A stretch of 55,471 nt of DNA from an uncultured Alphaproteobacteria bacterium (GTDB lineage: Bacteria > Pseudomonadota > Alphaproteobacteria > RF32 > CAG-239), in contig CALXUQ010000003.1 in NCBI GenBank assembly GCA_944391725.1, positions 1 to 55,471 on the forward strand, given 5' to 3'. Every line of letters starts with the position of its first letter. The stretch's first letter is position 1. The position numbers were made by a program, and so were the translations under genes. The notes beneath the pieces were generated by a model. It had not been told where the DNA came from, made no database searches, and worked only from the letters and a program-made list of their open reading frames with translations. Positions 23,475-45,343 of the stretch are shown here, in pieces.

Positions 23475-23861
23475 ATGAATAGTACAAAATCAGCAACTTT
23501 AGCCTTGTGGCTGACCCTAACCTTTTTGCTCGGCTCGGGACTGTTGGTGATGAAAAACCAAGTGCAAACTTTGGAAAACCGTTTGGTGAGTATCAATAAA
23601 GATATTGAAACCGATATCAAAACCATTCATATTCTACAAGCTGAATGGAGCCATTTGAACTCGCCGTCAAGACTGCGAAAACTCGCCGAAAAACATATTT
23701 TGCTAAATCCTATCCGAGCTGAACAAATTATTAACTATTCTCAGGTACCATTTGAGTATGAGAATAGCGAATCTGACAAACGGCGCTTGGCTCAGAAAAA
23801 TATTGCCGATTATGCGGCAAAAAATAAGGAACTTAAGCGTTTGGCAAGAGCTCAAAGATAA
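23475..23861 (+). CDS. ftsL: Cell division protein FtsL (alphaproteobacterial type)
   Basis: Single TM then coiled coil, LQAEWSHLNSPSRL; position between rsmH and ftsI. Confidence 0.85.
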   Translation: MNSTKSATLALWLTLTFLLGSGLLVMKNQVQTLENRLVSINKDIETDIKTIHILQAEWSHLNSPSRLRKLAEKHILLNPIRAEQIINYSQVPFEYENSESDKRRLAQKNIADYAAKNKELKRLARAQR

Positions 23862-23916
23862 TATAACAAACAGAACTAAACAATAACACAAATTATAGTG
23901 GCAGAAGCAACGAATT

Positions 23917-25665
23917 ATGTGGGGAAAGTATTTTTCTAGAGAAGGCCGGGATAATTTTTATATGCCCGGACAAGAAATAAAAATCGGGAGAAGTGCGGCT
24001 CTCAGGAACTTGACATGCGAGAAAGACCCCTTGTCGACCTGTCGAGTACGGGTGCTCGTGGCCGTGATGGGCTTTATGTTTGTATATTTAGTGATTGCTC
24101 TCAGACTATTTGATGTGTGTGTGGTGGAAAATTTGCATTCGGAAAGAAATGTGGCCGAAGCTCCCAGTCTTGAAGTGATGCCTGATAGTCCGATTAAGCG
24201 CGCCGATATTACTGACCGCAACGGCGCTATCATTGCTACCTCACTTCCTACCGTTAACCTATTTGCAAACCCCAAAAAAATCTTAAACCCGCAGAAAGCT
24301 GCCGTAGAATTGGCTCGTATCTTACCTGATCTGCGCTATGAAGACATTTTATCCAAACTCAAACGGCGCGGCAGTTTTGTTTATATCAAACGCAACCTCA
24401 CTCCTTCTCAACAATATCAAATCAATTATCTCGGAATTCCGGGGCTGGAATTTGAACAGGGTGAAAAACGTATTTATCCCCACAAAAACTTGTTTGCTCA
24501 TGTGATTGGCAACACCAACATTGATAATATCGGTATCTCGGGCTTGGAGAAAAAGCTTGACGAACGTCTGACCCACTCGGACATTCCGCTAAAACTTTCC
24601 ATTGATTTGGGGGTACAAGACACTATTCGCGAGATTTTGGCTCAAGGAATGCAAAAATTTAGTGCCAACGGCGCAACGGCAATTTTGATGGATGTGAACA
24701 CCAGCGAAATTTTGGCTATGGTTTCTCTGCCCGACTTTGACCCCAACCGCACTCAAAACCCCGGTTCGAAAGCTCAGTTTAATATGGCGACCAAAGGGGT
24801 GTATGAGCCGGGATCTGTGCTCAAAGTGTTTAATACCGCTATGTCTTTGGAGAGCGGCAAAGTCAAGGTGGCCGATACTTTTGATGCAACTCAGCCGCTC
24901 AAGCTCAAATACAACGTCATTAAAGATTATCGCGGCGAAAATCGCTGGCTCTCGGTACCCGAAATTTTAATCTATTCTTCTAACATCGGCTCGGCTCGTA
25001 TGGCGTTTAAGGCAGGCGGCGACGAACAAAGAGAATTTATGCGCAAAATCGGGTTCTTCCAAGAACTACCGATTGAAGTACCCGAAAAAGGCAAACCCCT
25101 CGTGCCAAAACGCTGGGGCGAAGGAACCATTGCAACCGTTGCTTTTGGCTATGGATTAGCAGTCACTCCTTTACACGTTATCACGGCTTTTTCGGCGATG
25201 GTAAACGGCGGAATTTATCACGATCCGACGCTAATTAAAAAAGAGCAAAATGATGACGGCCGCAGAGTGATTTCTTATAACACATCACAATCTATGCGCA
25301 AGCTCTTGCGTTTGGTGGTGGTGGAAGGTTCGGGCAAACGGGCCAATGTCAAAGGTTATGAAGTGGCCGGCAAAACCGGTACGGCTAACAAACTTTCGGC
25401 AGAAGGGAAATATGTCGACAAAAAAGTGCGCACAACCTTTGTTTCGGCTTTTCCGATTTCTAACCCCAAATACGCTCTGCTGTTGATGCTTGATGAACCT
25501 AAACCAACCAAAGAAACTTGGGGCTTTGTAACATCTGGTTGGAACAGCGTGCCAACAGGGGGAAAAATCATTGAGGCAATTGCTCCGCAACTCAACCTCA
25601 AAGCCAATTATGACCTTGATGAATTGCGCCAAGAGCGGATTATTGAAGCCTCTTACAGCCGCTAG
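23917..25665 (+). CDS. ftsI: Peptidoglycan transpeptidase PBP3
   Basis: RADITDRNG, RIYP, SxxK (SVLK), SxN (SSN), KTG motifs. Confidence 0.95.
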   Translation: MWGKYFSREGRDNFYMPGQEIKIGRSAALRNLTCEKDPLSTCRVRVLVAVMGFMFVYLVIALRLFDVCVVENLHSERNVAEAPSLEVMPDSPIKRADITDRNGAIIATSLPTVNLFANPKKILNPQKAAVELARILPDLRYEDILSKLKRRGSFVYIKRNLTPSQQYQINYLGIPGLEFEQGEKRIYPHKNLFAHVIGNTNIDNIGISGLEKKLDERLTHSDIPLKLSIDLGVQDTIREILAQGMQKFSANGATAILMDVNTSEILAMVSLPDFDPNRTQNPGSKAQFNMATKGVYEPGSVLKVFNTAMSLESGKVKVADTFDATQPLKLKYNVIKDYRGENRWLSVPEILIYSSNIGSARMAFKAGGDEQREFMRKIGFFQELPIEVPEKGKPLVPKRWGEGTIATVAFGYGLAVTPLHVITAFSAMVNGGIYHDPTLIKKEQNDDGRRVISYNTSQSMRKLLRLVVVEGSGKRANVKGYEVAGKTGTANKLSAEGKYVDKKVRTTFVSAFPISNPKYALLLMLDEPKPTKETWGFVTSGWNSVPTGGKIIEAIAPQLNLKANYDLDELRQERIIEASYSR

Positions 25666-26831
25666 TTATTCTCACTTGGAACATAAATCTTGCTGTTTTC
25701 GGGAATGGGAGCGCCAATGCCTTTTTCTAAAGCATCAACCGGAACAAAACCCATGTCGCCGTTATCAAGCATAACCCGATACCACTTGCTATCCGGAGTT
25801 ACCCCGCTAATGCGAACGGTATGATTTTCAGGAAGTTCAAACATCACATCAAACTGCTCTGAGGGGCCATACATGACCTTGGCCTCGCCTTTGAAGTGAT
25901 ATAGCTTGCTGGTATCATTGATATCTACCGGAATATTGAGCACTTTAGATACCACAATGTCGTCAAAGGTTTGTTCGCCGTTACTAAACTTCACGCGTTG
26001 GAAATAGGTTATCTCATCTTTTTTAGCAAAGAGTTTCATCAGCTCGGCATCGCTAATGACGCTTGATGTGAGTGGAAACAGCGCTACCACAAACAACATT
26101 ATCGGCATCACTAATTGCAACATTTTTAACTTGGCGTAATTCCAATGCGGCAGGCGCGCTTTATCGGTGCGAACTCCGGTCAGTCGGATAAACTTTTCCA
26201 ACAAATCCTTTTGCTTATCATCGGCATATTCTTTGGCTTGCAATGCCGAGAGCATGGCCTTTTCCATTTTATTTTCTTGATAATAGGCTACGGCATTGTG
26301 AATGAGCAAGGTCAAATTTTGCGACCGATTGTGGTTAATGGCACTGTAATTATGCGCAATAGCCTGCACATTTTTAAACAGAGCCGGAATGCCCCACCAG
26401 CCCAAAAGCCAGTTGCTGACCGAGGTTTTTAATACCACGGCCGGAGCCTCCAATGCATTGCAGATTTCATCGTCATTGCGCACTGAAGTGGACACGATTT
26501 TGCCCCAAACCTTTTGCAAAGAGAAAGTACGGATAAACGGATTTTCAATTCCGGCTCTATCTTTATAAATCTTTAAGCCGGACATATCGGGAAAATTTTT
26601 GCTGACATAGGCTTGGCTCAACAAATCGTATATCAGGCGGCTTTTCTCATCTTTTAATACATCATAGGCAACGGAGAGGTGTTGGAACTTATCGGTTGCT
26701 TCCTCACTGGTATTACGGTCGGGGTGCCAGAGCTTGGCGCGCTCGCGGTAGTTAGCTTTTATCTCAGCTTCGCTCGCGGCGGGAGTGAGGTCTAATATCT
26801 GATAATATCCTAAAGGGTCACGCATACTCAT
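25662..26831 (-). CDS. J-domain protein with TPR-like helix, TM segment and C-terminal SH3b-like domain
   Basis: YYQIL...WHPDRN...AYDVLKD J-domain; GWWGIP motif; hydrophobic LVMPIMLFVVALFPL; YGPS...WYRV....GDMGFV SH3b pattern. Confidence 0.85.
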   Translation of the reverse strand: MSMRDPLGYYQILDLTPAASEAEIKANYRERAKLWHPDRNTSEEATDKFQHLSVAYDVLKDEKSRLIYDLLSQAYVSKNFPDMSGLKIYKDRAGIENPFIRTFSLQKVWGKIVSTSVRNDDEICNALEAPAVVLKTSVSNWLLGWWGIPALFKNVQAIAHNYSAINHNRSQNLTLLIHNAVAYYQENKMEKAMLSALQAKEYADDKQKDLLEKFIRLTGVRTDKARLPHWNYAKLKMLQLVMPIMLFVVALFPLTSSVISDAELMKLFAKKDEITYFQRVKFSNGEQTFDDIVVSKVLNIPVDINDTSKLYHFKGEAKVMYGPSEQFDVMFELPENHTVRISGVTPDSKWYRVMLDNGDMGFVPVDALEKGIGAPIPENSKIYVPSENN

Positions 26832-28513
26832 ATGTATATTCCATCCTGCAAAAGTGGGGGTTCGGGTTCATCATCACACAGCTTGATAAACTTTTCTTTA
26901 ATATTAATCCGAATATTGCCGGCATAGTCAACCTCGGAAAGTGATTTCCTAAACAAATTCATAATTTCGGTGCAAAAGTCGGTATCAATTTCTTTTTCGG
27001 TGCGGATAATGAGGTCAAAACGCCGTTCATGCGGCAGAGAAAAACCATCAAACTGGAAACCGCCTAAAACCGTGAAGGAAGTATCGACTACAAAACGAGC
27101 CGCGCCTTTGCCTTTGGGGCTGGACTGTTGGTGGCGACCGTCTTTGCCAAACCTTCTCACCGCAACCTGAATTCGGCTCAAGTTTTCGGCACCATAAAAC
27201 GGAATTTCAATAATCCGCCACTGGGTATTATCTTCGCGGCGGCCGATAATTATATCTTCTAGCCGCGCTAAGGCCTTTTGTCCCTCGGGGCCGGAAAGGC
27301 GCAAGCTATCGACCACATCTTGTCCCAGCCAACTCTCAATTTTTCCCTCACCGGCGGCTTTGAGAAAAGTCATAATATTAGATAACATTTTGGAGTTGTG
27401 AGCCGGAATTTTCTCAATTATGGCATTGTAAATCTTTGGCGCCACCTGTGTTTGGAGCGGGGATAAAATTTCGCTTAGTTTACTCCCTAAGGGCTGGGCT
27501 GTTACTCCCGCTGATTTTTGGTTTATTTTAGGTTCGCGTTCCAGCCCCAGCAATTCGGAAAAACGCAGGCTAAATTTTTCACCAACGGCGATTTTGAGCG
27601 GGACTTCGGGAAGAATCTCGCCTAAGGGCGTACGCAACACAACTTTATCCCCGCGCAAGGCGGTTTCAGCCGTAAGCTCACGGCCGGCGGGAACATTTTC
27701 AAAAAAGTTTTTAATGGTCTCAATTATCTTTTCGGGCAAGCCTTGAGATAGTTTTGCCTCGGCACCGCTGGGCGGGGTGGAATATACAGCCGAATTGTTC
27801 TGAGGCAAAGATGTTTCCAGCAAAGGTTTGAGCGTGGCGGCCAAATTGCGGATAACTTCCGGTAGGCTTTGAGCCATGGTAGTCGGTTGCGGCGAAACCG
27901 GAGTATTTGATTGCGACGCTGTTTCGACAATTTCGGGTTTGAGCGACAAATTTTCAATCAAATTGGATAATTGGCGGATTTCGGCGTTCCCTACTCCCAT
28001 AGCCGATAATTCACGTGCCAAAAGCGGTTGCAAGCGCAGCGGAACCAAAGCGACATCTTGCAAATTGCCAATGGTTTTAACCACCGCAACGGTTGGCGAT
28101 GATATCGGCATGTTGGTTTTGGAAGGGGTGGCAGATAGAAAATTTTCAATCTTTTGACCATCAACACTTATCAATCGGACATCAATCCGCTGGGGAGTTT
28201 TCGCCACTACTCGTGCCTGGATTTGGCTGGCTTGTTCGGGAAGTTGAACTTGCGGCGGCAAGTCCATTGTAACGGTAGTATTTGCGTTTCCGGCGTTCTC
28301 CCCGCGACCTAGCCCTAAATCAATACTGACCAGCAACTTGCCGGTTAAGGTTTGCAAAGTTTGCGGCTTAATCTGCAGGTTAATCTGTTGGCCCAAATTC
28401 AGGTTTCCCATGCCGCCTTCGGGAGTTTCAATCCCTGCGGTCACCCCGGAGCCGGTACTGCCGCCTTCGGGAAGAGTCACATTTAGCGGCGGAACCAGAT
28501 TAGTCATGGGCAA
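26828..28513 (-). CDS. Hypothetical protein with P/Q/T-rich N-terminus and FliK-like C-terminal domain
   Basis: C-terminal WRIIEIPF...RFVVDTSFTVLGGFQFDG...RFDLIIRT pattern reminiscent of the FliK switch domain; overlaps both neighbours. Confidence 0.6.
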   Translation of the reverse strand: MPMTNLVPPLNVTLPEGGSTGSGVTAGIETPEGGMGNLNLGQQINLQIKPQTLQTLTGKLLVSIDLGLGRGENAGNANTTVTMDLPPQVQLPEQASQIQARVVAKTPQRIDVRLISVDGQKIENFLSATPSKTNMPISSPTVAVVKTIGNLQDVALVPLRLQPLLARELSAMGVGNAEIRQLSNLIENLSLKPEIVETASQSNTPVSPQPTTMAQSLPEVIRNLAATLKPLLETSLPQNNSAVYSTPPSGAEAKLSQGLPEKIIETIKNFFENVPAGRELTAETALRGDKVVLRTPLGEILPEVPLKIAVGEKFSLRFSELLGLEREPKINQKSAGVTAQPLGSKLSEILSPLQTQVAPKIYNAIIEKIPAHNSKMLSNIMTFLKAAGEGKIESWLGQDVVDSLRLSGPEGQKALARLEDIIIGRREDNTQWRIIEIPFYGAENLSRIQVAVRRFGKDGRHQQSSPKGKGAARFVVDTSFTVLGGFQFDGFSLPHERRFDLIIRTEKEIDTDFCTEIMNLFRKSLSEVDYAGNIRINIKEKFIKLCDDEPEPPLLQDGIYI

Positions 28514-29312
28514 CTAGCCTCTTGGCGATGGCATAGACATCTTCAGCCGCTTCGGATGTGGGGTAGCGATTAAAAATCGTACTTTGGTTGCGAATGGCGT
28601 CGCGGACGCGGGTATCTCGACGGACAATTCCTAACAGCGGCGGATTTATTTTTAAGAAATTGGTACAAGCTTTGAGCAATGTATCATAAGTGCGCTGGCC
28701 TTCACGCAAAGAATTGGCCTGATTGACCACAATACTAATATCGCATTTAGTATATTGCATGGTCATTATCTTGATAAAAGCATAGGCATCGGTCAAAGAA
28801 GTTGGTTCATCGGTACAAACTACAATTATCTTTTCGGCTAAGCCGGACAAAATCCTCACCGGTTTTTCAACTCCGGCGCCCATATCCAAAATCACCTTAT
28901 CGTAAGAAGAGGCCAATACATTCAAGTCCTCTCCCAATATCTGCAATCTGCCGACCGGAAGAGAGGCCAAACCTGCAGAGCCCGAACGACCGGCAATGAC
29001 ATCAAAGTGGCCCTTATCATAATGATGTACAACCTGATTTAAGGTAAGGCTCCCCGAGACAACGCTCCCGATATCATATTTTGCCATTAACCCTAACTGA
29101 ATGTCAACATTAGCCAAACCCAAGTCACCATCAAAAAGCAAGGTCTTTTGTTTTAAGATACTTAGCGAGTGCGCCAAGGTGATGGAAAACCAAGTTTTGC
29201 CAACACCGCCCTTACCCGAGGCAACCGCAATCAGGTTCTTGCCTTTTTTGGTGCTGCGGGGGGTGGTTCCTCGGGGCATTATCTTTAGTTCTTCGGGTTT
29301 GTTTTGTTCCAT
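28500..29312 (-). CDS. flhG: Flagellar number regulator, MinD-like ATPase FlhG/FleN
   Basis: ASGKGGVGKT, DGDLGLANVD, EPTSLTDAYAFIK. Confidence 0.93.
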   Translation of the reverse strand: MEQNKPEELKIMPRGTTPRSTKKGKNLIAVASGKGGVGKTWFSITLAHSLSILKQKTLLFDGDLGLANVDIQLGLMAKYDIGSVVSGSLTLNQVVHHYDKGHFDVIAGRSGSAGLASLPVGRLQILGEDLNVLASSYDKVILDMGAGVEKPVRILSGLAEKIIVVCTDEPTSLTDAYAFIKIMTMQYTKCDISIVVNQANSLREGQRTYDTLLKACTNFLKINPPLLGIVRRDTRVRDAIRNQSTIFNRYPTSEAAEDVYAIAKRLVAHD

Positions 29313-29339
29313 GGCATCCTCTTTTCACTTAAAAAAATT

Positions 29340-30296
29340 TTAAGCCAAAATCAGTTTACTTAATCCGGCAGGTGTTATCTCTGATAAACCTCCGGCAATG
29401 TTGGCACTCACACTGGCGGCACTAAAACTCAGTTCACAACAAGCGGCAACCGATAACAACGAGCCGATGCGGCGGGTTAAATCGAGCCTGGTTGGCAAAA
29501 GTTGCTTGGCCCCAAGTTCGGTAAAGACTTCGGCTATTTCTATAGCCTCATAGGTATTACTACCGGCGGACATAACCAAAATCTTATCGCCTTTAATCAC
29601 CTCCAGCCAGCGGCTGACTTTTTTGACCTCGTCTTCCAAAAACGGATTAATCCCCGGAGTGTCTATCAAGACCAAATCGTAATTTTTTTCAGCTTTTTGC
29701 AACAGCTCATACAAATTGCGTTCGCTCTGGCAGAAGAAAAAATCTTGCTCCAAAATCTTGGCAAAAGCTTCTAACTGCTTGTTGGCTCCGGCACGGACAT
29801 TATCGGTGGAAACAATGCAGCAAGAGAGCTTTTTCATCAGGGCTAAAGCCGCGGTTTTGGCAATGGCGGTGGACTTGCCGCTACCGGGGGCTCCCATAAA
29901 AACTTTGCAAGGGTTGATTTTATCTAAGATATCGCGATATGTATATAACTCCCCTAATGCCAACTCCAAGAGCCTACGGTCATCAAAAATTTGCCGCTCG
30001 GCACTCAACTTCCTAACCGCAGATAATATCCGCTGTTTGACCAAATCCAAGGTATCGTGATATTCTAAACTCTCACGCAGCAAGCGGTCGGTATAGCGCG
30101 AAGGATTGTCGCGCACTTCCAGTTCTTGTTGTTCGTTAAAGCTAATCTCTTGGGTTTCTTCAATAGCGGCAGTAACTCTGATTTGACCGTCGTCCAGTGT
30201 TTCGGTCGAAATAATGACGGCATTATCTCCCAAAGCCTCGCGGGCTAGGCTCATGGCCTCCAAACTTCCTGATGCAGTAAAGGTTTTGATTTTCAT
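29340..30296 (-). CDS. flhF: Flagellar SRP-family GTPase FlhF (short form)
   Basis: MKIKTFTA..EAM N-terminus, GAPGSGKST, RAGA..QL, DTPG, TRLD. Confidence 0.9.
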   Translation of the reverse strand: MKIKTFTASGSLEAMSLAREALGDNAVIISTETLDDGQIRVTAAIEETQEISFNEQQELEVRDNPSRYTDRLLRESLEYHDTLDLVKQRILSAVRKLSAERQIFDDRRLLELALGELYTYRDILDKINPCKVFMGAPGSGKSTAIAKTAALALMKKLSCCIVSTDNVRAGANKQLEAFAKILEQDFFFCQSERNLYELLQKAEKNYDLVLIDTPGINPFLEDEVKKVSRWLEVIKGDKILVMSAGSNTYEAIEIAEVFTELGAKQLLPTRLDLTRRIGSLLSVAACCELSFSAASVSANIAGGLSEITPAGLSKLILA

Positions 30297-30308
30297 TTGC
30301 CTTTACTC

Positions 30309-32435
30309 CTAAATTTGGCCAACCGTCTTGATTTTGGCTTTGGGGTGGATTTCATTTTGGGACATGACCACGGTCAGCGGGCGAAAACGCTCAATAATCG
30401 AACGGACAAACGGTCTAATCCCCGGGCTGGTCAGCAAAACTGCGGTTTCGCCTTTGGCGGCTAATTCTTCCAGCGAATTTCTGACCTTGGTGATAAACTG
30501 CTGCAAGGCACTCGGAGCCATGGCCAACTGGCGGTCATCGCCCTCCCCGACAATTGCTTCGGCAAAGGCATGCTCCCATTCGGGCGACAAGGTAATCAGC
30601 GGGATTACCCCAAACTCGTTGGCATTGGCATTAGACAGCTGGCGCGCCAAACGTGAACGGACATGCTCGGTTATCATCATCAGGCTGTGGGTTGAAGACA
30701 CGGCTTCGGAAATTCCTTCCAAAATGGTGGGCAAATCGCGAATCGAAACCCGCTCTTGCAACAAGTTTTGCAAAATACGTTGTACCGCGCCCAAGCTTAC
30801 TTTGCTTGGAATAAGCTCTTTAACCAGTTTTTGCTGCTCTTTATCCATTTCTTCAAGCAATTTCTGTGTCTCGGCATAAGATAAGAGCTCGGGCATATTA
30901 TCTTTGACCAACTCGGTGATATGTGTGGTCACCACGGTGGCCGGATCAACCACCGTATAGCCCCTAAACATGGCTTCTTCACGATAACTCTGGTCAATCC
31001 ACATGGCCTTGAGCCCGAAAGTAGGCTCATAGGTTTGTTCGCCCGGCAAGGTGATAGGCTCACCTCTTGGATCCATCACCAGCAGTTGGGTCGGGCGCAA
31101 TTCGCCCTTGCCGGCCTTAACTTCTTTAATGTATATATTATACTCATTGGCCTCTAACTGCATATTATCCTGAATGCGGATAGAGGGCATTACAAAGCCT
31201 AATTCTGAGGCCAAAGCTCGGCGCAAAGCTTTAATTTGGTCGGTCAATTTCTTATTAGCTTCTTCATTAATCAACGGCAGCAAACCATAGCCGATCTCCA
31301 AGCGAATCAAATCCATGCGCAAAGCATTGGCTATCGGCTCATCGGCGGCTTTGGTTACTTTGCCTTGTTTCTTTTCTTGCTCCATAACCTCTTGGGCACG
31401 CGCTTGGGCCGCTTTTTGCTGCTTGTCTAAATAATAGGCCGTGGCTCCGGTCAAGGAAGCCAACAAAATAAACGGAGCGGCCGGAGTTCCCGGTAACATT
31501 CCCAATGCCAAAGCCATAAAGGCACTCATACCCAAGGCTTTAGGATAGTTAGTGACCTGCTCAAACAAAACTTTGTCGGTAGAATCGGTCATGCCGGCTT
31601 TTGATACCAAGATACCGGCAGCAACAGAGATTATCAGCGCCGGAACCTGACTGACCAAGCCATCACCAACGGTCAGGCGAGTATAAGTTTCGGCCGCGGC
31701 AGAAAAGCTCATATCATTTTGGACCATACCAATGATAATACCGGCAAACACATTAATAAAGGTAATAATCAAGCCAGCAATGGCATCTCCGCGGACAAAC
31801 TTGGAGGCACCATCCATGGCTCCGTAAAATGAGCTTTCTTTGGACAAGTCTTCGCGGCGGGCTCGCGCCTCATCTTCGGTTATCAAACCGGATGACAAGT
31901 CGGCGTCAATCGCCATTTGCTTACCGGGCATGGCATCCAAAGCAAAACGAGCGGCAACTTCGGCAATACGCCCCGAACCTTTGGTAATGACCACAAAGTT
32001 CACCAAAACCAAAATGGCAAAGACAATCACACCAATAATAAAATTGTTACCCATGATGAAACCGCCAAATGCCTTAATGACTTCACCGGCGGCATCTGGG
32101 CCCATATAGCCATTGGCCAAAATCAGACGGGTGGAAGCTAAGTTCAGCGACAATCGGTACATGGTAGTGATGAGCAACACCAGCGGAAAAGCACTAAACT
32201 GATTGGGCTTTTCGATAAAAATGGCAGTCATTAAGACCAAGCAAGAAATGGTAATGGAAAAGGCCAAGGCAATATCAAGCAACCAGGCCGGCATCGGCAA
32301 AATCAGGATAACCAGCATGACCACAATTGACAAAGCAAAGAAAATATCGCCCCGCTTTGTGGAGGCAACTATCAAATCCTTAAACGAACGTCCGCCAAAT
32401 ACCGAACTGCTGACATTTTCTGCTTTTTTTGCCAT
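30309..32435 (-). CDS. flhA: Flagellar export gate protein FlhA
   Basis: RLSLNLASTRLIL, EVAARFALDAMPGKQMAIDADL, FYGAMDGASKFVRGDAIAG. Confidence 0.98.
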   Translation of the reverse strand: MAKKAENVSSSVFGGRSFKDLIVASTKRGDIFFALSIVVMLVILILPMPAWLLDIALAFSITISCLVLMTAIFIEKPNQFSAFPLVLLITTMYRLSLNLASTRLILANGYMGPDAAGEVIKAFGGFIMGNNFIIGVIVFAILVLVNFVVITKGSGRIAEVAARFALDAMPGKQMAIDADLSSGLITEDEARARREDLSKESSFYGAMDGASKFVRGDAIAGLIITFINVFAGIIIGMVQNDMSFSAAAETYTRLTVGDGLVSQVPALIISVAAGILVSKAGMTDSTDKVLFEQVTNYPKALGMSAFMALALGMLPGTPAAPFILLASLTGATAYYLDKQQKAAQARAQEVMEQEKKQGKVTKAADEPIANALRMDLIRLEIGYGLLPLINEEANKKLTDQIKALRRALASELGFVMPSIRIQDNMQLEANEYNIYIKEVKAGKGELRPTQLLVMDPRGEPITLPGEQTYEPTFGLKAMWIDQSYREEAMFRGYTVVDPATVVTTHITELVKDNMPELLSYAETQKLLEEMDKEQQKLVKELIPSKVSLGAVQRILQNLLQERVSIRDLPTILEGISEAVSSTHSLMMITEHVRSRLARQLSNANANEFGVIPLITLSPEWEHAFAEAIVGEGDDRQLAMAPSALQQFITKVRNSLEELAAKGETAVLLTSPGIRPFVRSIIERFRPLTVVMSQNEIHPKAKIKTVGQI

Positions 32436-32453
32436 GATTAGACTTTAGTTTTC

Positions 32454-33788
32454 CTATCCGTTAGAGGGCGGGACTTCATAGCCTTCGTCCTGATATTGTT
32501 TGAGTTTGTTGCGCAAGGTGCGAATCGATATCCCCAGCAAATTGGCCGCTTGGGTCCGATTGCCAAAGGTATGCTTTAAGGTATCAATTATCAAATTTCG
32601 TTCCATACCGGCCAAGGTTTGTCCGCCTCCGGCAACACTTGCGGAAGGGGCATTTTCTTCTGCGGCCGGTGTCGGATTTATTACGGCACTCGGGTCAGTC
32701 AAGATGATGGCTTCGGGTTCAATCTCTTCGGCATTAGACAGCAAAACCGCGCGGTGAATGGTGTTTTCCAGCTCACGGACATTGCCCGGCCACAAATAAT
32801 TGAGCAACATATCTCCTGAGGCCTTAGACAAGTCTTTCATCGGCAACCCATTAAGCTCGGAATATTTTTTGATGAAATGCTTGGCCAAAACCAAAATATC
32901 TTCCGGACGGTCTTTCAAATCGGGAATATTGATATTAACCACATTCAAGCGATAGTACAAGTCCTCACGAAAAGCACCGTCTTTTACTGCTTGGGCCAAA
33001 TTGCGGTTAGAAGTAGCAATAATCCGCACATCTACTTTTATCGGAGTTTTGCCGCCTATTCTATCAATCTCTTTTTCTTGAATGGCACGCAACAATTTAG
33101 CCTGAATCCGGATGTCCATTTCCGAAATTTCATCTAACAACAAGGTACCGCCCGAGGCTTCCTCAAACTTGCCGATGCGACGTGCCACCGCTCCGGTGAA
33201 AGCTCCTTTCTCATAGCCAAAGAGCTCAGATTCCAACAAAGTTTCGGGAATGGCCGCACAGTTAACCGCCACAAATTTTTTATTGGCTCTTTTGGAGTTG
33301 TCATGAATAAAACGAGAGAAAATTTCCTTACCGGTTCCAGATGAGCCGGTAAGTAAAACGCTGGCTTCCGATGGGGCTATTTGCTTGGCCATTTTCAAAA
33401 TAGCCTCGGTTTTCTTATCGCCATAAATCAGAGCATGGTTCTCACGAGTGGCGGCGGCTAAAACCGCACCAATCAGTTCGGGATCCGGGGGCAAAGGAAT
33501 ATATTCCTTGGCTCCGGCCTTAATGGCCTTAACGGCTAGGCTCGGGTCATTGGCCACGCCGCAGGCTACCACCAAAACATTTATCCGCTCGCTTTCCAAA
33601 GAACTGATAAACTTGTAGACATCGAGCTTGACATCTATCATCACCAACTCAATACTCTTGCCGGAACGAAGTATGTTTAAGGCAGCATCAATATCTTGTG
33701 CCAGCGACACCTGCCCTCCTTGCGAGATGGCAATTTTGCTGGCAGCCCCTATCTGCCCGTCTAAAGTTCCAACAATTAACAGCTCCAT
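32454..33788 (-). CDS. flbD: Sigma54-dependent flagellar activator FlbD
   Basis: Receiver domain, GSSGTGKE, GAFTGA, WPGNVRELEN, HTH GISIRTLRNKL; position between fliN and flhA. Confidence 0.93.
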   Translation of the reverse strand: MELLIVGTLDGQIGAASKIAISQGGQVSLAQDIDAALNILRSGKSIELVMIDVKLDVYKFISSLESERINVLVVACGVANDPSLAVKAIKAGAKEYIPLPPDPELIGAVLAAATRENHALIYGDKKTEAILKMAKQIAPSEASVLLTGSSGTGKEIFSRFIHDNSKRANKKFVAVNCAAIPETLLESELFGYEKGAFTGAVARRIGKFEEASGGTLLLDEISEMDIRIQAKLLRAIQEKEIDRIGGKTPIKVDVRIIATSNRNLAQAVKDGAFREDLYYRLNVVNINIPDLKDRPEDILVLAKHFIKKYSELNGLPMKDLSKASGDMLLNYLWPGNVRELENTIHRAVLLSNAEEIEPEAIILTDPSAVINPTPAAEENAPSASVAGGGQTLAGMERNLIIDTLKHTFGNRTQAANLLGISIRTLRNKLKQYQDEGYEVPPSNG

Positions 33789-33813
33789 GGCTTTTTACCC
33801 TGAATATCCTTTC

Positions 33814-34167
33814 TTATTTGGTTACAGATTTAACAATCTCAGTCATAGTTATGCCCAATTTATCATCAACCACCACAACCTCACCACGAGCAACCAAGTT
33901 GTTATTGACATATATATCTATTGCCTCGCCCACCTTGCGGTCCAGCTCGATAATTGCTCCTTTATTGAGTTTCATGAGTTGGCTGACCTTCATCTGGGTC
34001 TTGCCCAAGATGGCAGAGACCTTAACCGGAATATCGTATACGGCTTCCAAGTCGCTGGTGGAGCTTGGAATATCATAGTCGTCCATATTGTTATCGGATT
34101 TCAAGACCGGATCGTTGTTGACGATGCTGCTTTCATCCATTTCATCTAAGTGCAATTCGTTTGTCAT
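33814..34167 (-). CDS. fliN: Flagellar motor switch protein FliN
   Basis: DIPVKVSAILG, LDRKVGEAIDIYVNNNLVARGEVVVV. Confidence 0.95.
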   Translation of the reverse strand: MTNELHLDEMDESSIVNNDPVLKSDNNMDDYDIPSSTSDLEAVYDIPVKVSAILGKTQMKVSQLMKLNKGAIIELDRKVGEAIDIYVNNNLVARGEVVVVDDKLGITMTEIVKSVTK

Positions 34168-34217
34168 AATATTCCTCTCTTACCCCAAAAAACTCTCAAT
34201 TTGCTTTACATTACAGC

Positions 34218-34925
34218 TTAATTTTCAGCGGCAGTTTCTTCAAGCAAATTATTAACTTTTTCCAATAATTTATCACTACCGCTCTGAACTCCGCCGTTTT
34301 CCCACTCAACCCGGCAATCGGAAACGCCTAAGCTCGCATCCTTATGCAAGGCAATTTTGCCCTCAAAATCATTAATCCGCGCCAGATTGGCAATTTGAGC
34401 CTGCATTTTACCAATAATATCGGGATTGAAATAAAACGAAAGTTTGGCCTCAGATTTGAAATTGGCAAAATTTTCATTCAAAAATTGGGTCAGAATTTCT
34501 TCAGCGTGTTCCTGACTGATATGAGGCAGTAATTTTTTAATCACGGCCAGATTCAGCTCCATAAAATCTCGTTCCAATTCTTTTTGCAACTGCTCTTTTT
34601 GCGCTAATAAATCACTGATATGCTTATCTAACTCTAATAACAAACCGGTGGTTTGATTGTCGATTTCTTCGGTTTTGGCACGGTAGCCTTCTTCATATCC
34701 CAATTTCTGAGCTGCGGTCTTGGCAGCATTCATCTCTTCTTCCGAATAAGTCGGCGCGACAACTGCTTGCGGCTCGGGAACAGTTTCGACTACTTCCGGA
34801 GTGCTGACTGCAGTCTCAGTCGGTTCTTCCTCAGGGGTGGCGACCTCGGCGGTGGGAGTTGCTACCTCTGCGCGGTCGTCATCTAAAACAAAATTGTCAA
34901 ACTCATATTTTTTGTAGCCGCTCAT
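34218..34925 (-). CDS. fliH: Flagellar assembly protein FliH
   Basis: KKYEFD N-terminus, A...GYEEG.RA repeat, C-terminal DCRVEWENGG; position between fliG and fliN. Confidence 0.85.
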   Translation of the reverse strand: MSGYKKYEFDNFVLDDDRAEVATPTAEVATPEEEPTETAVSTPEVVETVPEPQAVVAPTYSEEEMNAAKTAAQKLGYEEGYRAKTEEIDNQTTGLLLELDKHISDLLAQKEQLQKELERDFMELNLAVIKKLLPHISQEHAEEILTQFLNENFANFKSEAKLSFYFNPDIIGKMQAQIANLARINDFEGKIALHKDASLGVSDCRVEWENGGVQSGSDKLLEKVNNLLEETAAEN

Positions 34926-40881: not shown

Positions 40882-42624
40882 TTATACTCTAATGTTAAGT
40901 GCGGATTTACCATCCCAAGCGATTTCGGATAAAGGAAGGTTGTCATTTCCGCTGTCTTGTTCAAAAATGTTGCCCATAAACTGCCGCAAGCCGTTTTCTT
41001 CTTCGCGTTGTTGTTGCCATGCTTGGCTGTTGTCGTTATAAGCAAAGCTCAAGCTGTTGTCATCGGTTTGGAAACCGGCATCGGCAAAGGCTTTTTGCAA
41101 AATTTGCATATCTTTTTGCAGAATTTCCATGGTTTCGGGACGGCTGGCAATGATATGCGCGTGCAATTTGCCGTCTTTGCTAAGCTGCATTTTAATTTCA
41201 ATATGTCCTAAATCTTCCGGTTTGAGGCTAATGTCAATTTTATCTACCCCTTTTACCGCGGATTTGGTTATATTGACTTTTACTTGGTCGATAACTTCTT
41301 TGCTCATGCCTTTTAAGCTTTCTTCCAGCGGAGATTTCATCTCAGTGCGCGGAAGACCTTGGGCTTGGCGAGCGGCGCCGTTGCCAACCGTTGAAGCGGC
41401 AACCACCACACCGTCAACCACTGCAGAATTGCCTTGTGAGGCAGCGGCGCTGACGTTTTCGACCATAGTTTGAATAACTGCCGCTTGCGGTACTGCTGTT
41501 CCTTGGGGAAAGGAAACATTTGGGGAAGTGGTGTTGCTACCGGCGGCGGCAGTCGGGGAAACTTGTGCAGTGTGCAGAGATTTGGGAGAATCTACACTGC
41601 TTTCAGCTGTTTCTTGGAGCGAAAGCGAGTTGGCAACCATATCCTGACGACTACGGTAGGAAATTTTTTCCTCATTGTTCTTAATCGTTACATCTAGTTT
41701 AACTTTTTTGTCTTCGGCAACTTGAATCTCTGCCTCAACCTCACCTTTAGCATCTTCTAAAAGCTCAGTTGTGTTGTCTTCTTGTCCGGAAGAAACAGCC
41801 TTCTTGGCGGCGGTGATATTCTCTTTGCTGACCAGTTCAACATTTTCTTCGCCAACGGCCTGAGGAGCGGCAACTTCTTCGGGGCTGACCATGGTCAGTT
41901 CACTAATGTCAATACCATCTTCTGCTGCAGTGCTAAGCGCGGTCATTTTTTCCAAAGATACCGGATTGCCTTCCATATCGGTAATATCTGCCAAATTTAC
42001 GGTGCTGATTTCTCCGCTCTCCATTGCGGCGGCAAGCTCAGCTCCGGTGGTGGCAACAAAATTGTTGCTTTTAGCGTCAAAGTACATAATCTCGCCCAAA
42101 TTTTTAACATCGGCCGCAGTTAATTGGGTCGGCAAATTTTGCCGTGGGGATTCTGCAGGCATATTAACTTTAGCTTCGGGAGCATTGGAGATATCTGCCG
42201 TTTGCGGAGCCAACTCAGCCTCAGTGTTTTCCATCGTCGGAGCATCTTCGCTAACTTGACGAGGAGCCTCGGCGGCAGCCGGAGCTTCAACAGGTTCAGA
42301 AGCAGTCCGTGGCTCGGTTTGGGTCGGCGTCGACACAACATCTTCTTTTACATCATCTTTTCTTTTGTTATCTTTGCGAGGTTTGCTTTCGACAACATCG
42401 GAAGCAGTGCTTTCCGCCGGACGCGCACTGTCTGATAATTTGGTGTCGGCACTTTTGTCAGCCAAAGTCACGGCGTTTTGGCCGCTAAAGTCAATTGAAG
42501 TCATGCCAAAATCTTGCTTTTTGGACGCAACCAAACTCGAAAAATCAAGCGCGCTCACTGCGGCATTGTTCTTCTTTAGCAGGGCCAGCGGGTTGTTCTG
42601 GGTATTTACGTCTTTAACTTCCAT
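40882..42624 (-). CDS. fliK: Hook-length control protein FliK
   Basis: Long low-complexity A/S/T/E-rich N-terminus; ISLKPEDLGHIEIKM and ALNIRV C-terminal signature; upstream of flgD. Confidence 0.9.
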   Translation of the reverse strand: MEVKDVNTQNNPLALLKKNNAAVSALDFSSLVASKKQDFGMTSIDFSGQNAVTLADKSADTKLSDSARPAESTASDVVESKPRKDNKRKDDVKEDVVSTPTQTEPRTASEPVEAPAAAEAPRQVSEDAPTMENTEAELAPQTADISNAPEAKVNMPAESPRQNLPTQLTAADVKNLGEIMYFDAKSNNFVATTGAELAAAMESGEISTVNLADITDMEGNPVSLEKMTALSTAAEDGIDISELTMVSPEEVAAPQAVGEENVELVSKENITAAKKAVSSGQEDNTTELLEDAKGEVEAEIQVAEDKKVKLDVTIKNNEEKISYRSRQDMVANSLSLQETAESSVDSPKSLHTAQVSPTAAAGSNTTSPNVSFPQGTAVPQAAVIQTMVENVSAAASQGNSAVVDGVVVAASTVGNGAARQAQGLPRTEMKSPLEESLKGMSKEVIDQVKVNITKSAVKGVDKIDISLKPEDLGHIEIKMQLSKDGKLHAHIIASRPETMEILQKDMQILQKAFADAGFQTDDNSLSFAYNDNSQAWQQQREEENGLRQFMGNIFEQDSGNDNLPLSEIAWDGKSALNIRV

Positions 42625-43149: not shown

Positions 43150-43260
43150 CTTGACCTTTCTAACTATGCAAATTAAAATCTTTTTTAATAATACTATGCT
43201 AAATTGATTAAGATTGTAATAATATTATCACATTTTCTTATTTTTTTAAAGGGTGATTGC

Positions 43261-44115
43261 ATGAACTGCTGGAAAAAAATTTTGATGCTACTGTTTTTGG
43301 GGCTGTTGGGGCCGCAAAATGCTTGGGCCGTGGTCGATTTTACGCCCGACAAAAACAAAACTGACATTCGTTATACCAGTTTTATGGATTATCCGCCTTT
43401 TGGGGTATATACCATTCGTGATCTAGGATTTGGTCAGAGCCGCAATGAATATGCAACAATTTTTCATGAGCTGATTGAAGATTTTTTTAAGAACAGTTCA
43501 ATGCGCTCCGAATTTGTCGGAAATACGGATTATTCGGATTTGGTAAGACAAGTGCGTGCCGGTGATATTGATGTGATTTTCGGAATTTATTACGGAACCA
43601 AAATTTATGACGGTCTCGATTATGTGATGCCTGCAATTATTGATAATCCGGTAACCATTATCATGCTGCCCGAAAGAGTGGGTGAGGTCAAACAACTCGC
43701 AGATTTGCAAAAACTTAAGGGGGCTAAGTTCAGCGATGATCGCTTCAGCGATTATGTTAACGGTGAATTTGAAAAATTTAAGTTGCAAACCGAATCTGAT
43801 CCGACCCAAATGTTTAAGAAACTCTACACCAGAGAAATTGATTACATTTTGGCCAGTTATTATCTCGGGGTCATTAAGGCATCTGATCTTGGGTTGCGAG
43901 GCAAACTCAGTTTCTCAAAACAGGCCATTTGGAATATGCCGCTGTTTATCGGCGTTTCGAAAGCCTCGGAATATCATGACTCTCTCATGCGCAGCCTGAT
44001 TGTGTATATCGAGAAAAAAGAAAACCGCGATAAATTTGCCCGCGAACTCCAAGAAATGGTGCGAAAATATGAACAAAAAAGTATGCAAACCGTGCCGCCG
44101 GTTTTTACCGAATGA
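43261..44115 (+). CDS. Periplasmic solute-binding protein, family 3-like
   Basis: Signal peptide ending AWA; DYPPFG, VRAGDIDVIFG, KLYTREIDYIL patterns. Confidence 0.7.
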   Translation: MNCWKKILMLLFLGLLGPQNAWAVVDFTPDKNKTDIRYTSFMDYPPFGVYTIRDLGFGQSRNEYATIFHELIEDFFKNSSMRSEFVGNTDYSDLVRQVRAGDIDVIFGIYYGTKIYDGLDYVMPAIIDNPVTIIMLPERVGEVKQLADLQKLKGAKFSDDRFSDYVNGEFEKFKLQTESDPTQMFKKLYTREIDYILASYYLGVIKASDLGLRGKLSFSKQAIWNMPLFIGVSKASEYHDSLMRSLIVYIEKKENRDKFARELQEMVRKYEQKSMQTVPPVFTE

Positions 44116-44193
44116 TTGGTTTAGAGGCTTGACCTTTAAATTATAGCGACTAAAATTGGCTTATTGAATCTTTGTATAGGAAAGTGCATTAAC

Positions 44194-44859: not shown

Positions 44860-44869
44860 AGATTGCATC

Positions 44870-45343
44870 ATGAAACTCGGAAAATTGCTCTTGTGCTTGC
44901 CAATCGTATTCGTAAATGCTTGTACTTCTGTATATGAAGACAAAGCGCAAGGCCAGATTGTGTATCACTGGGAGAGGCCCAGAACCGGTGTCATCAAATT
45001 TTCACGCGATCATTCCGAGTGCTTGCGTGAGGCCGAAAACTGGACCTGGACACCGGATATAAACAGTTGGTTCTACTCCGAAGAGGCTAAGCTCAATATT
45101 CGTGCCGACTGGCATGCCGAACGCGGGATTTGGGCTACTTACGTGCCATATCCCGGGGCGCAACCCTTAATTGTCAACTCCTTGCGTGATGATGAAAATA
45201 TTAAACCAAAGTCTTATCGCGAATGTATGGAAAAACGCGGCTATGCCCACCGCTTTACCGATATTCCCGAAACCACCAACTTATATATTTATCGTCCGCA
45301 ACGAGTTTTGCAAGACAAGCCTTTCAGCCAAGACGACATATAA
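44870..45343 (+). CDS. Hypothetical lipoprotein
   Basis: Lipobox-like VNAC; W.RP....F.RD...C and YRECMEKRGY cysteine pair. Confidence 0.7.
   Translation: MKLGKLLLCLPIVFVNACTSVYEDKAQGQIVYHWERPRTGVIKFSRDHSECLREAENWTWTPDINSWFYSEEAKLNIRADWHAERGIWATYVPYPGAQPLIVNSLRDDENIKPKSYRECMEKRGYAHRFTDIPETTNLYIYRPQRVLQDKPFSQDDI

What the first reader, a model, noticed from the sequence alone, without database searches (positions are those of the whole stretch)
25662..26831. J-domain-TM-SH3b protein translationally coupled to the end of the flagellar operon
Seen: its ATG overlaps the upstream stop (ATGA, 26828-26831). It has an intact HPD J-domain, a GWWGIP segment, a TPR-like helix, a TM and an SH3b-like C-terminus. 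Known: HPD J-domains recruit DnaK, bacterial SH3b domains often bind peptidoglycan, and FlhF/FlhG position polar flagella. Inference: a transmembrane co-chaperone that links the cell wall to cytoplasmic Hsp70 at the flagellar assembly site. I know of no such core flagellar component.
Basis: partly seen in the sequence, partly recalled or inferred. Interest (0 to 1): 0.72.

Follow-up and report, generated by a model that had tools for sequence, protein, structure and literature searches.

The report
Membrane J-domain co-chaperone partnered with FlhG
The last gene of this gut alphaproteobacterium's flhA-flhF-flhG flagellar operon encodes an undescribed membrane-spanning Hsp70 co-chaperone that always sits next to the flagellum-number regulator FlhG, even in relatives that have lost the flagellar genes at this locus, so it probably links chaperone activity to where and how often flagella are started.

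Summary
ORF 25662-26831(-) encodes 389 aa. Its ATG overlaps the upstream TGA (ATGA). It has an orthodox HPD J domain, an invariant NWxxGWW hairpin, TPR-like helices, one TM helix and a C-terminal SH3b-like domain.

The gene order is strongly conserved. In 80 loci from species-representative gut alphaproteobacterial genomes, the gene follows an FlhG-type ATPase gene in 79; the 80th contig is too short to show it. Five deep environmental lineages (24-32% identity outside the J domain) show the same flhA-flhF-flhG-X-J order, where X is the ORF561 family, or sit beside fliI/fliJ.

It is not a universal or strictly flagellar part. In five loci the fliK-to-flhF block is absent between unchanged flanks. 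A diverged FlhG-like gene and the J gene remain there, both under purifying selection. Another 25 loci keep only a mini FliF-FliG fusion, a short FliH, sometimes FlhF, then FlhG and J.

Best reading: an inner-membrane class-C J protein, probably anchored to peptidoglycan, that recruits DnaK to the FlhG/FlhF initiation module. The closest precedent is Vibrio SflA, which has a different architecture and no homology outside the J domain. I found no paper describing this family. It is a new variant of a known kind.

The parts
25662..26831 (-). Whole gene: 389-aa J-domain / TM / SH3b protein, last gene of the flagellar operon
   Evidence: ORF. More than 120 full-length homologues at 44-99% identity. 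dN/dS 0.05-0.16.
26828..26831 (-). ATGA start/stop overlap with upstream ORF561
   Evidence: Sequence. 4-nt or 1-nt overlap in 45/50 ORF561-J junctions of relatives.
26625..26807 (-). J domain (residues 9-69), cytoplasmic
   Evidence: Pfam PF00226 E 8e-21. PDB profile hits cover only residues 5-86. Foldseek hits to the Ydj1 and DnaJ J domains.
26718..26726 (-). HPD tripeptide (H36 P37 D38)
   Evidence: CAC CCC GAC. Invariant in 85/85 sequences.
26460..26531 (-). Beta-hairpin (residues 101-124), a relic zinc ribbon in which only C122 is left
   Evidence: AF2 strands 101-110 and 115-124. Distant relatives carry CxxC...QPR...CxxCA in the aligned columns.
26340..26447 (-). Helical hairpin (residues 129-164) with the invariant NWxxGWW turn; N140-P149 = 26385-26414
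   Evidence: AF2 helices 129-143 and 148-164. Invariant N140, W141, G144, W145, W146. Hydropathy is below the TM range in most members.
26178..26327 (-). Three-helix TPR-like bundle (residues 169-218) with the conserved H178-N179-A180
   Evidence: AF2 pLDDT above 90. Foldseek gives only weak TPR-type matches, best E 0.32.
26055..26126 (-). Single transmembrane helix (residues about 236-259)
   Evidence: KD 2.26, with one such peak in all relatives. Net flank charge is +2.7 on the N side and +0.7 on the C side.
25722..26015 (-). Predicted periplasmic beta domain (residues 273-370) containing the SH3b-like fold; Pfam SH3_3 match at residues 322-367 = 25731-25868
   Evidence: Pfam SH3_3 E 1e-3 here and above the gathering score in homologues. 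Foldseek SH3b hits 3npf, 6biq, 4krt. SH3b repeat proteins hit residues about 315-375.
26828..28513 (-). ORF561: conserved protein of unknown function between flhG and the J gene (family 'X')
   Evidence: No Pfam, NCBIfam or PDB match. Homologous to the 525-629-aa genes in the same position in distant lineages, E 1e-43 to 1e-55. Databases call it only 'hypothetical protein'.
28500..29312 (-). FlhG (MinD/ParA-type ATPase, deviant Walker A SGKGGVGKT)
   Evidence: Pfam CbiA/ParA and NCBIfam MinD-like matches. Upstream neighbour or next-but-one of the J gene in 79/80 loci.
29340..30296 (-). FlhF (SRP-type GTPase)
   Evidence: NCBIfam TIGR03499 E 1.6e-34 and Pfam SRP54.
30309..32435 (-). FlhA (export gate), start of the flhA-flhF-flhG-ORF561-J run with 12-27 nt gaps or overlaps
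   Evidence: ORF coordinates. 79-99% identical in type A loci. The equivalent gene in distant loci hits Pfam FHIPEP.

Best explanation
The gene encodes a single-pass inner-membrane class-C (type III) J-domain co-chaperone.

Shown:
- An orthodox HPD J domain sits at the N-terminus.
- It is followed by a family-specific cytoplasmic module: a relic zinc ribbon, an NWxxGWW helical hairpin and a TPR-like helix bundle.
- Then come one TM helix and an SH3b-like domain on the far side of the membrane.
- The gene is the terminal member of a sigma54-activator/flhA/flhF/flhG/X/J operon whose order is conserved over deep divergence, and its start overlaps the upstream stop.
- Its one near-invariant neighbour in the gut clade is the MinD/ParA-type ATPase FlhG.

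Inferred:
- The SH3b domain fixes the protein to peptidoglycan in the periplasm.
- The cytoplasmic module binds FlhG, or an FlhG-containing complex with FlhF, FliG or the ORF561-family protein.
- The J domain then triggers ATP hydrolysis in DnaK, so that Hsp70 clamps onto and remodels that client at the membrane. This would reset or limit the FlhF/FlhG-driven start of an MS-ring/C-ring, and so control flagellar number or placement.

In function this combines two Vibrio proteins. HubP is a peptidoglycan-bound membrane landmark that recruits FlhG. SflA is a membrane J-domain protein that restrains flagellar initiation.
For: Domain anatomy:
- J domain E 8e-21 with HPD.
- AF2 model, mean pLDDT 83.6.
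- One TM helix in all members, with a more positive N-side flank.
- SH3b supported by Pfam in homologues and by Foldseek.

Synteny in the gut clade:
- The J gene is directly downstream of flhG, or of flhG-ORF561, in 79/80 species-level loci.
- Start/stop overlaps are conserved.
- The downstream neighbour varies: ftsI lies within 8 kb in only 3 loci.

Deep conservation, at 24-32% identity outside the J domain:
- L082/83: FlhG-X-J.
- L088: FliG..FliN-MotA-EBP-FlhA-FlhF-FlhG-X-129aa-J-J2.
- L091: the same without MotA.
- L093: FliH-FliN-EBP-FlhA-FlhF-FlhG-X-723aa-J.
- L081 and L086: beside fliI/fliJ and cheYBR.

Stepwise reduction keeps J together with FlhG:
- Type B (21 loci): mini FliF-FliG fusion, short FliH, FlhF, FlhG, J.
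- Type C (4 loci): FlhF is gone.
- Type D (5 loci): only FlhG-like plus J, between the same flanking genes as in the window.
- In type D, J still has HPD, GWW and the SH3 motifs with dN/dS 0.12-0.16. FlhG-like has dN/dS 0.07-0.11.

Precedent: SflA, a TM DnaJ-domain protein, represses flagellar initiation in the FlhF/FlhG pathway, and HubP recruits FlhG (PMC7226244).
Against: - There is no direct evidence of any physical interaction with FlhG, FlhF, FliG, ORF561 or DnaK. I could not run a multimer prediction.
- Peptidoglycan binding by the SH3b domain is untested.
- In two distant lineages (L081, L086/87) no flhG lies next to the J gene within the contig. The FlhG link is therefore near-universal only in the gut clade and in four of the six distant contexts.
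- Type D FlhG-like proteins have lost the signature lysine of the deviant Walker A motif. If J acts on FlhG's ATPase cycle, that cycle has changed there.
- The middle domain has no significant structural relative, so its role in partner binding is a guess.
- Gene order shows functional association, not mechanism.
Confidence: 0.5

Rival explanations
1. It is a dedicated assembly co-chaperone for membrane-embedded flagellar parts. It brings DnaK to nascent FliF, FlhA or export-gate subunits during MS-ring and export-apparatus assembly. FlhG is only a genomic neighbour.
For: The gene lies in the operon that also encodes FlhA and FlhF, downstream of fliF-fliG-fliH. Type B loci keep a FliF-FliG mini-fusion together with J. 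In Vibrio, FlhF promotes MS-ring formation (PMC7226244).
Against: Type C and D loci keep J after FlhF, and in type D after every FliF/FliG remnant and FlhA, are gone from the locus. J there is still under purifying selection. FlhG-like is the only flagellar-family gene retained with J in all four locus types.
Confidence: 0.2
2. The FlhG-like ATPase and the J protein form an autonomous envelope or cell-pole module, for example for positioning another structure or for division-site or envelope homeostasis. Its flagellar association is ancestral but not essential to its present function.
For: Type D loci have lost the flagellar block in situ but keep both genes under purifying selection. Type B and C loci keep only relic parts. 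MinD/ParA ATPases position many cargos (established knowledge).
Against: In 50/80 gut-clade loci, and in all six distant contexts examined, the gene sits inside or beside flagellar or chemotaxis genes. I could not test whether type B-D genomes lack flagellar genes elsewhere.
Confidence: 0.15
3. It is a general housekeeping membrane J protein, DjlA-like, that happens to be co-transcribed with flagellar genes.
For: Class-C membrane J proteins with general roles exist, such as DjlA (established knowledge). Source databases label relatives only 'J domain-containing protein' or 'CbpA'.
Against: The position relative to flhG is conserved across lineages with only 24-32% identity and across repeated rearrangements. 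The taxonomic range is narrow, 165 hits in 1.84 billion representatives. NCBIfam DjlA scores 17 bits against a cut-off of 162.
Confidence: 0.08
4. The J domain is used as a scaffold rather than to activate Hsp70. The protein would then be a purely structural membrane tether.
For: J-like domains without chaperone function are known, for example ARC6/Ftn2 in plastid and cyanobacterial division (recalled knowledge, not checked here).
Against: HPD and the helix II/III signature residues (K25, Y28, K33, H36, P37, D38, N40, F49, A55, Y56, Y68) are invariant in the 18-sequence alignment. HPD is present in 85/85 sequences. Such conservation is typical of functional J domains.
Confidence: 0.05

Closest known systems
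SflA of Vibrio alginolyticus (transmembrane DnaJ-family regulator of flagellation)
   Same: It is a single-pass membrane protein with a cytoplasmic J domain and a periplasmic protein- or ligand-binding domain. It acts in the FlhF/FlhG pathway: it represses flagellar initiation at wrong sites and localises with flagella and the pole (PMC7226244, section 7).
   Different: The domain order is inverted. SflA has a signal peptide, an N-terminal periplasmic TPR/SLR domain, a TM and a C-terminal J domain. Here the order is N-terminal J domain, TM and C-terminal periplasmic SH3b. There is no sign of homology outside the J domain: the non-J region has no PDB relative, although the SflA periplasmic domain has been crystallised. 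SflA is described as Vibrio-specific and is not encoded in flagellar clusters. This gene is operonic with flhG in Alphaproteobacteria.
HubP/FimV polar landmark proteins
   Same: The topology and logic match: a periplasmic peptidoglycan-binding domain, one TM and a cytoplasmic interaction region. HubP recruits FlhG (and SflA) to the pole (PMC7226244). The middle domain gives a weak, non-significant structural match to FimV TPR3 (4mbq).
   Different: There is no LysM or FimV domain. This protein is much smaller. HubP has no J domain. The resemblance is functional analogy only.
DjlA and other class-C membrane J-domain proteins
   Same: They are membrane-anchored and have an HPD J domain. They lack the G/F, zinc-finger and CTD regions of DnaJ.
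   Different: DjlA has an N-terminal TM and a C-terminal J domain, no periplasmic domain and no flagellar linkage. The NCBIfam DjlA model is far below its cut-off, 17 against 162 bits.
TopJ of Mycoplasma (terminal-organelle J protein)
   Same: It is a J-domain co-chaperone dedicated to building a polar motility organelle. The NCBIfam TopJ models match the J domain, E 1.7e-14.
   Different: The match covers only residues 9-69 and scores 53 against a cut-off of 300. The architecture and the organelle are unrelated.

Membership tests
J-domain proteins (Hsp40, Pfam PF00226) | Four-helix J domain of about 70 aa | tested here: met
   Pfam E 8e-21, 74.3 bits against GA 27.8. AF2 helices at 9-12, 21-35, 43-59 and 62-74. 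Foldseek TM about 0.8 to the Ydj1 J domain.
J-domain proteins (Hsp40, Pfam PF00226) | HPD tripeptide between helices II and III | tested here: met
   H36-P37-D38 at 26726-26718. Present in 85/85 relatives.
J-domain proteins (Hsp40, Pfam PF00226) | Stimulates Hsp70 (DnaK) ATPase | not testable with these tools
   Needs biochemistry.
Class A/B DnaJ (canonical DnaJ/CbpA) | G/F region, CxxCxGxG zinc-finger domain and/or C-terminal substrate-binding domains | tested here: not met
   NCBIfam DnaJ_bact scores 70.8 bits against a cut-off of 377.2 and covers only residues 9-112. CbpA scores 44.8 against 403. PDB profile hits stop at residue 86. The protein is therefore class C.
SflA (Vibrio) | Single TM with a cytoplasmic J domain | tested here: met
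SflA (Vibrio) | N-terminal signal peptide and periplasmic TPR/SLR domain; C-terminal J domain | tested here: not met
   The J domain is at residues 9-69 with no signal peptide. The domain beyond the TM is SH3b-like. SflA architecture is taken from PMC7226244.
SflA (Vibrio) | Represses flagellar initiation in the absence of FlhF/FlhG | not testable with these tools
   A genetic phenotype.
DjlA | Match to the DjlA equivalog model (N-terminal TM, C-terminal J domain) | tested here: not met
   NF006948 scores 17.2 bits against a cut-off of 162. The domain order is opposite.
Bacterial SH3 (SH3b, Pfam PF08239 SH3_3) | Sequence match above the Pfam gathering score | tested here: inconclusive
   The window protein scores 19.6 bits against 27. 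Family members pass: L063 27.7, P0190 28.9, P0205 31.6, P0211 32.2. The non-J query also hits multi-SH3b repeat proteins at residues about 315-375.
Bacterial SH3 (SH3b, Pfam PF08239 SH3_3) | SH3 beta-barrel fold | tested here: met
   Foldseek probability 1.0 to SH3b domains of 3npf, 6biq and 4krt and to Abl SH3, with E 0.014-0.04.
Bacterial SH3 (SH3b, Pfam PF08239 SH3_3) | Binds peptidoglycan | not testable with these tools
   Needs a sacculus pull-down.
Core (universal) flagellar component | Present wherever flagella are present, and absent where they are absent | tested here: not met
   The family has only 165 hits (E<1e-3) in 1.84 billion representatives. It persists at loci where the fliK..flhF block has been lost.
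HubP/FimV landmark | LysM domain and FimV C-terminal domain | tested here: not met
   No such Pfam hits. There is only a non-significant Foldseek match to FimV TPR3.

The most novel reading that the evidence does not exclude
FlhG (a MinD/ParA-type ATPase) and this membrane J protein form an autonomous two-component module in which an Hsp70 co-chaperone, anchored through the membrane to the cell wall, is the missing landmark or regulator of FlhG in Alphaproteobacteria. The module is ancient. It was ancestrally duplicated (J1/J2, plus a J-less paralogue) with an intact zinc ribbon. It is robust enough to outlive the flagellum itself, surviving in gut lineages that reduced the apparatus to a FliF-FliG mini-fusion or lost it. 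That would imply a direct Hsp70-to-ParA/MinD regulatory link not described so far.
Probability: 0.3. Interest if true: 0.8.

Novelty: new variant of a known kind. Interest (0 to 1): 0.62.

Why it matters
How FlhF and FlhG are localised and reset is an open problem. The review PMC7226244 states that the mechanisms remain largely unknown. Alphaproteobacteria that use FlhF/FlhG lack a known HubP-like landmark.

A membrane-spanning, probably wall-anchored J protein that is genetically welded to flhG gives a concrete, testable candidate. It would tie the general Hsp70 machine to spatial and numerical control of a large nanomachine.

The graded series of loci is a natural deletion experiment. It runs from a full cluster, to a FliF-FliG mini-fusion with FlhF, FlhG and J, to FlhG-like plus J alone. 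It points to which proteins work most closely together, and it may reveal a repurposed flagellar relic in common gut bacteria.

Tried and rejected
1. ORF561 as a FliK-like hook-length protein. From the C-terminal sequence pattern I suspected a Flg_hook-type domain. There is no Pfam hit in any of 18 members at E up to 5. hhalign against the window's true FliK gives E 0.32 and hmmsearch gives E 1.5. Rejected. A genuine FliK is at 40882-42624.

2. Structural identification of the middle domain (residues 85-232). The AF2 model is good (pLDDT 87), but Foldseek against the PDB gives nothing below E 0.32. The full-length model search is dominated by J-domain hits.

3. Profile search with the non-J regions of distant relatives (A4), meant to find named or cultured carriers. 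It returned only 2 hits because of the word-index prefilter. It gave no information.

4. Cluster look-up for organism names of distant relatives. It returned only 'CbpA', 'DnaJ domain-containing protein' and 'Pseudomonadota bacterium'.

5. Promoter and terminator scan of 23500-34500. There is one weak sigma-70-like match inside ORF561 (26988-26961, 9/12) and no terminator between the operon genes or between the J gene and convergent ftsI. Terminator-like sites are not enriched (14 found against 15.2 expected). Promoter-like sites number 30 against 15.7 expected. None of this is decisive.

6. The GWW hairpin as a second TM helix. Hydropathy is at most 1.2 in most members and reaches 1.6-1.85 in only three distant ones. 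AF2 makes it a helix-turn-helix. I treated it as cytoplasmic or interfacial.

7. Literature searches for a described alphaproteobacterial flagellar J protein. Four searches found no paper. One found two unrelated papers. Otherwise only SflA papers turned up. The primary SflA paper PMC3562094 is not held.

8. Linkage to the dcw cluster (ftsI convergent). It is present in only 3 of 80 loci, so it is coincidental.
Full report
**1. What is in the window**

The ORF at 25662..26831 on the minus strand encodes 389 aa. Its ATG (26831-26829) overlaps the TGA (26830-26828) of an upstream 561-aa ORF, so the ATGA at 26828-26831 is real.

On the same strand the upstream genes, in genomic order moving away from the J gene, are:
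- ORF561 (26828-28513)
- a MinD/ParA-type ATPase, FlhG (28500-29312)
- FlhF (29340-30296)
- FlhA (30309-32435)
- a sigma-54 activator (32454-33788)
- FliH, FliG, FliF, FlgE, FlgD
- a true FliK (40882-42624)

. Gaps within flhA-flhF-flhG-ORF561-J are 12-27 nt or overlaps. The downstream gene is a convergent ftsI whose stop codon overlaps that of the J gene.

**2. Anatomy of the protein**

- Pfam DnaJ matches residues 9-69 at E 8e-21. HPD is H36-P37-D38.
- The canonical DnaJ, CbpA and DjlA models are far below their cut-offs and match only the J domain. PDB profile hits stop at residue 86. This is therefore a class-C J protein.
- An AlphaFold2 model built on 18 homologues (mean pLDDT 83.6) shows, in order: the J domain; a beta-hairpin (101-124); a helix-turn-helix (129-164) whose turn is GWWG; three further helices (169-218); a long helix (232-255); a low-confidence linker; and a beta domain to residue 370.
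- Hydropathy gives one TM-grade peak (2.26, residues 241-259), and one such peak in every relative. The GWW segment stays below TM range in most relatives.
- The flank on the J-domain side of the TM is more positive, net +2.7 against +0.7. There is no signal peptide, and a J domain must meet cytoplasmic DnaK. The topology is therefore N-in, C-out (inference).
- For the C-terminal domain, SH3_3 is sub-threshold in the window protein but above the gathering score in several family members. Foldseek aligns the model with SH3b domains of cell-wall hydrolases.
- The middle domain, modelled alone (pLDDT 87), has no significant structural neighbour. It gives only weak TPR-type matches. The non-J region has no sequence relative in the PDB.

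**3. The family**

More than 120 full-length homologues (44-99% identity) come from uncultured gut Alphaproteobacteria. They are labelled 'Azospirillum sp.' or 'Alphaproteobacteria bacterium' MAGs, or Candidatus Scatocola, which NCBI places in Rhodospirillales.

An exhaustive HMMER search with residues 80-389 against 1.84 billion representative proteins found only 165 hits at E<1e-3. Part of these are unrelated multi-SH3b proteins that match only the last domain.

About a dozen hits are distant full-length relatives (24-32% identity). All ten that I scanned carry an N-terminal J domain, although the J domain was not part of the query.

In those relatives the hairpin region carries CxxC...QPR...CxxCA, a zinc ribbon. 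The window protein retains only C122 there. Ancestrally the family therefore had this order: J domain, zinc ribbon, GWW hairpin, TPR-like helices, TM, SH3b.

**4.

A scan of one genome per species found 173 matching stretches, and 80 loci were fetched. tblastn with the window's proteins shows the J gene directly after an FlhG-type gene, or after flhG-ORF561, in 79 of 80 loci. The 80th contig is too short.

The downstream neighbour is variable. ftsI is within 8 kb in only three loci.

Junctions are tight. By the longest-ORF rule, 36 of 50 ORF561-J junctions overlap by 4 nt and 9 by 1 nt. FlhG-J junctions mostly overlap by 4-14 nt.

The distant relatives repeat the pattern:
- L082/83: FlhG - 525 aa - J
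- L088: FliG...FliN-MotA-EBP-FlhA-FlhF-FlhG - 621 aa - 129 aa - J - J2
- L091: FliN-EBP-FlhA-FlhF-FlhG - 629 aa - J - J2
- L093: FliH-FliN-EBP-FlhA-FlhF-FlhG - 615 aa - 723 aa - J
- L081 and L086/87: the gene lies beside cheY-cheB-cheR and/or convergent fliJ-fliI and a CtrA-like regulator

.

The 525-629-aa genes are homologues of ORF561, E 1e-43 to 1e-55. ORF561 has no Pfam, NCBIfam or PDB match and is not FliK. Databases call it hypothetical.

**5. A natural deletion series**

The 80 loci fall into four types.

- **Type A (50 loci, including the window):** the full cluster.
- **Type B (21 loci):** upstream of FlhF-FlhG-J there is only a 466-aa fusion and a 173-aa truncated FliH. The fusion consists of TM1, a FliF RBM3-like segment, TM2, FliG_M and FliG_C. 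There is no FlhA, hook gene, FliK, activator or ORF561 within 17 kb.
- **Type C (4 loci; one contig is too short to be sure):** FlhF is also missing.
- **Type D (5 loci):** in the four with full flanks, the AcrB, OEP, 157-aa, GST and 303-aa genes that flank the window's flagellar cluster (window 43204-49915) abut an FlhG-like gene (36-40% identity) followed by J. The whole fliK..flhF block and ORF561 are absent in situ. The fifth type D contig (L072, 4.2 kb) is too short to show its flanks and is assigned by its FlhG-like sequence.

The type D FlhG-like proteins have lost the signature lysine of the deviant Walker A motif: SGKGGVGKT becomes SGTTGIGKT or SGSKAAGKT.

The J proteins of all types keep HPD, NWxxGWW, HNA and the SH3 motif. 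They are under purifying selection, with dN/dS 0.05-0.08 in A, 0.05-0.11 in B/C and 0.12-0.16 in D. The type D FlhG-like genes are too, at 0.07-0.11.

In an NJ tree rooted with distant relatives, D forms one clade and B+C another. Because the outgroups have the full arrangement, B-D are derived reductions (inference). I could not test whether these genomes carry flagellar genes elsewhere.

**6. Interpretation**

The 'core flagellar component' reading needs narrowing, for two reasons. The family is confined to a few alphaproteobacterial lineages. Its constant partner is FlhG rather than the flagellum.

The order of retention (FlhG, then FliG/FliF remnant, then FlhF, then everything else) places the protein at the initiation step. 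That is where FlhF, FlhG and the MS/C-ring proteins meet. It is not at hook or filament assembly.

The most likely mechanism is a wall-anchored membrane tether that hands FlhG, or an FlhG complex, to DnaK. This mechanism is inferred, not shown.

The closest known system is Vibrio SflA. It is a transmembrane DnaJ-domain protein that represses misplaced flagellar initiation and depends on HubP, which also recruits FlhG (PMC7226244). SflA has the opposite domain order and a TPR/SLR periplasmic domain. It is described as Vibrio-specific and is not encoded in flagellar clusters. The present family therefore works like SflA and HubP combined but is not a member of either family.

**7. Novelty**

No paper in the searchable library describes a J-domain gene linked to flhF/flhG in Alphaproteobacteria. 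Only SflA papers appear. Source annotations are generic.

I rate it a new variant of a known kind, namely membrane-tethered class-C J proteins with a flagellar-placement precedent. Interest is moderately high because of three things: the unusually clean synteny, the uncharacterised partner ORF561, and the relic loci.

Noticed in passing
L022:4077-5477 (also L025, L039, L047, L026, L035, L052): A 466-aa natural mini-fusion. It consists of TM1, a FliF RBM3-like piece (about window FliF 230-446), TM2, FliG_M and FliG_C. It lacks FliF RBM1/2 and FliG_N. It is followed by a 173-aa truncated FliH. It looks like a reduced flagellar relic kept with FlhF/FlhG/J in 25 gut-clade species.
   Followed up: partly
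L063:7205-8002, L072, L074, L077 (type D FlhG-like): The FlhG-like ATPase has lost the signature lysine of the deviant Walker A motif (SGTTGIGKT or SGSKAAGKT instead of SGKGGVGKT). It is still under purifying selection (dN/dS 0.07-0.11). It may be a pseudo-ATPase or have an altered cycle.
   Followed up: partly
window 26828-28513 (-), ORF561: A conserved protein family of about 525-630 aa lies between flhG and the J gene in both near and very distant lineages. It has no Pfam, NCBIfam or PDB match. Its C-terminal 200 residues are the most conserved, with the motif RF(V/I)(V/I)DT...LGxFQFDG...RFDLIIRTEK.
   Followed up: partly
window 25662-25665: The convergent ftsI (+) and the J gene (-) share overlapping TAG stop codons within the palindrome CTAG. 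There is no intergenic space and no terminator-like hairpin between the dcw and flagellar operons.
   Followed up: no
L088:10001-12275, L091:7675-9862, L081:5613-8049, L082:4155-5012: Distant lineages carry two tandem full-length paralogues (J1, J2) with intact CxxC...CxxC zinc ribbons. L082 has a J-less paralogue (285 aa) that aligns with the middle-TM-SH3 part only.
   Followed up: partly
L088:9615-10004 and L086:879-1268: A 129-aa ORF directly upstream of the J gene is shared by two distant lineages (26% identity, E 1.5e-8). It may be another small partner. It is absent from the window.
   Followed up: no
L081, L082, L086, L088, L091 (downstream of the J genes): There is a recurrent arrangement in which the J gene is convergent with fliJ-fliI, followed by a CtrA-like response regulator (Response_reg + Trans_reg_C).
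   Followed up: no
L032, L044, L074 record titles: Contigs carrying this alphaproteobacterial operon are deposited under the names Bacteroidaceae, Lactobacillus sp. and Lachnospiraceae. This is probably mis-binning or mislabelling in the source assemblies.
   Followed up: no
window 33789-34217: A gap of about 430 nt lies between the sigma-54 activator and fliH. In the distant loci L091 and L093 a fliN gene lies immediately upstream of the activator gene, and in L093 it sits between fliH and the activator. A small fliN may lie here, below the ORF length cut-off I used.
   Followed up: no
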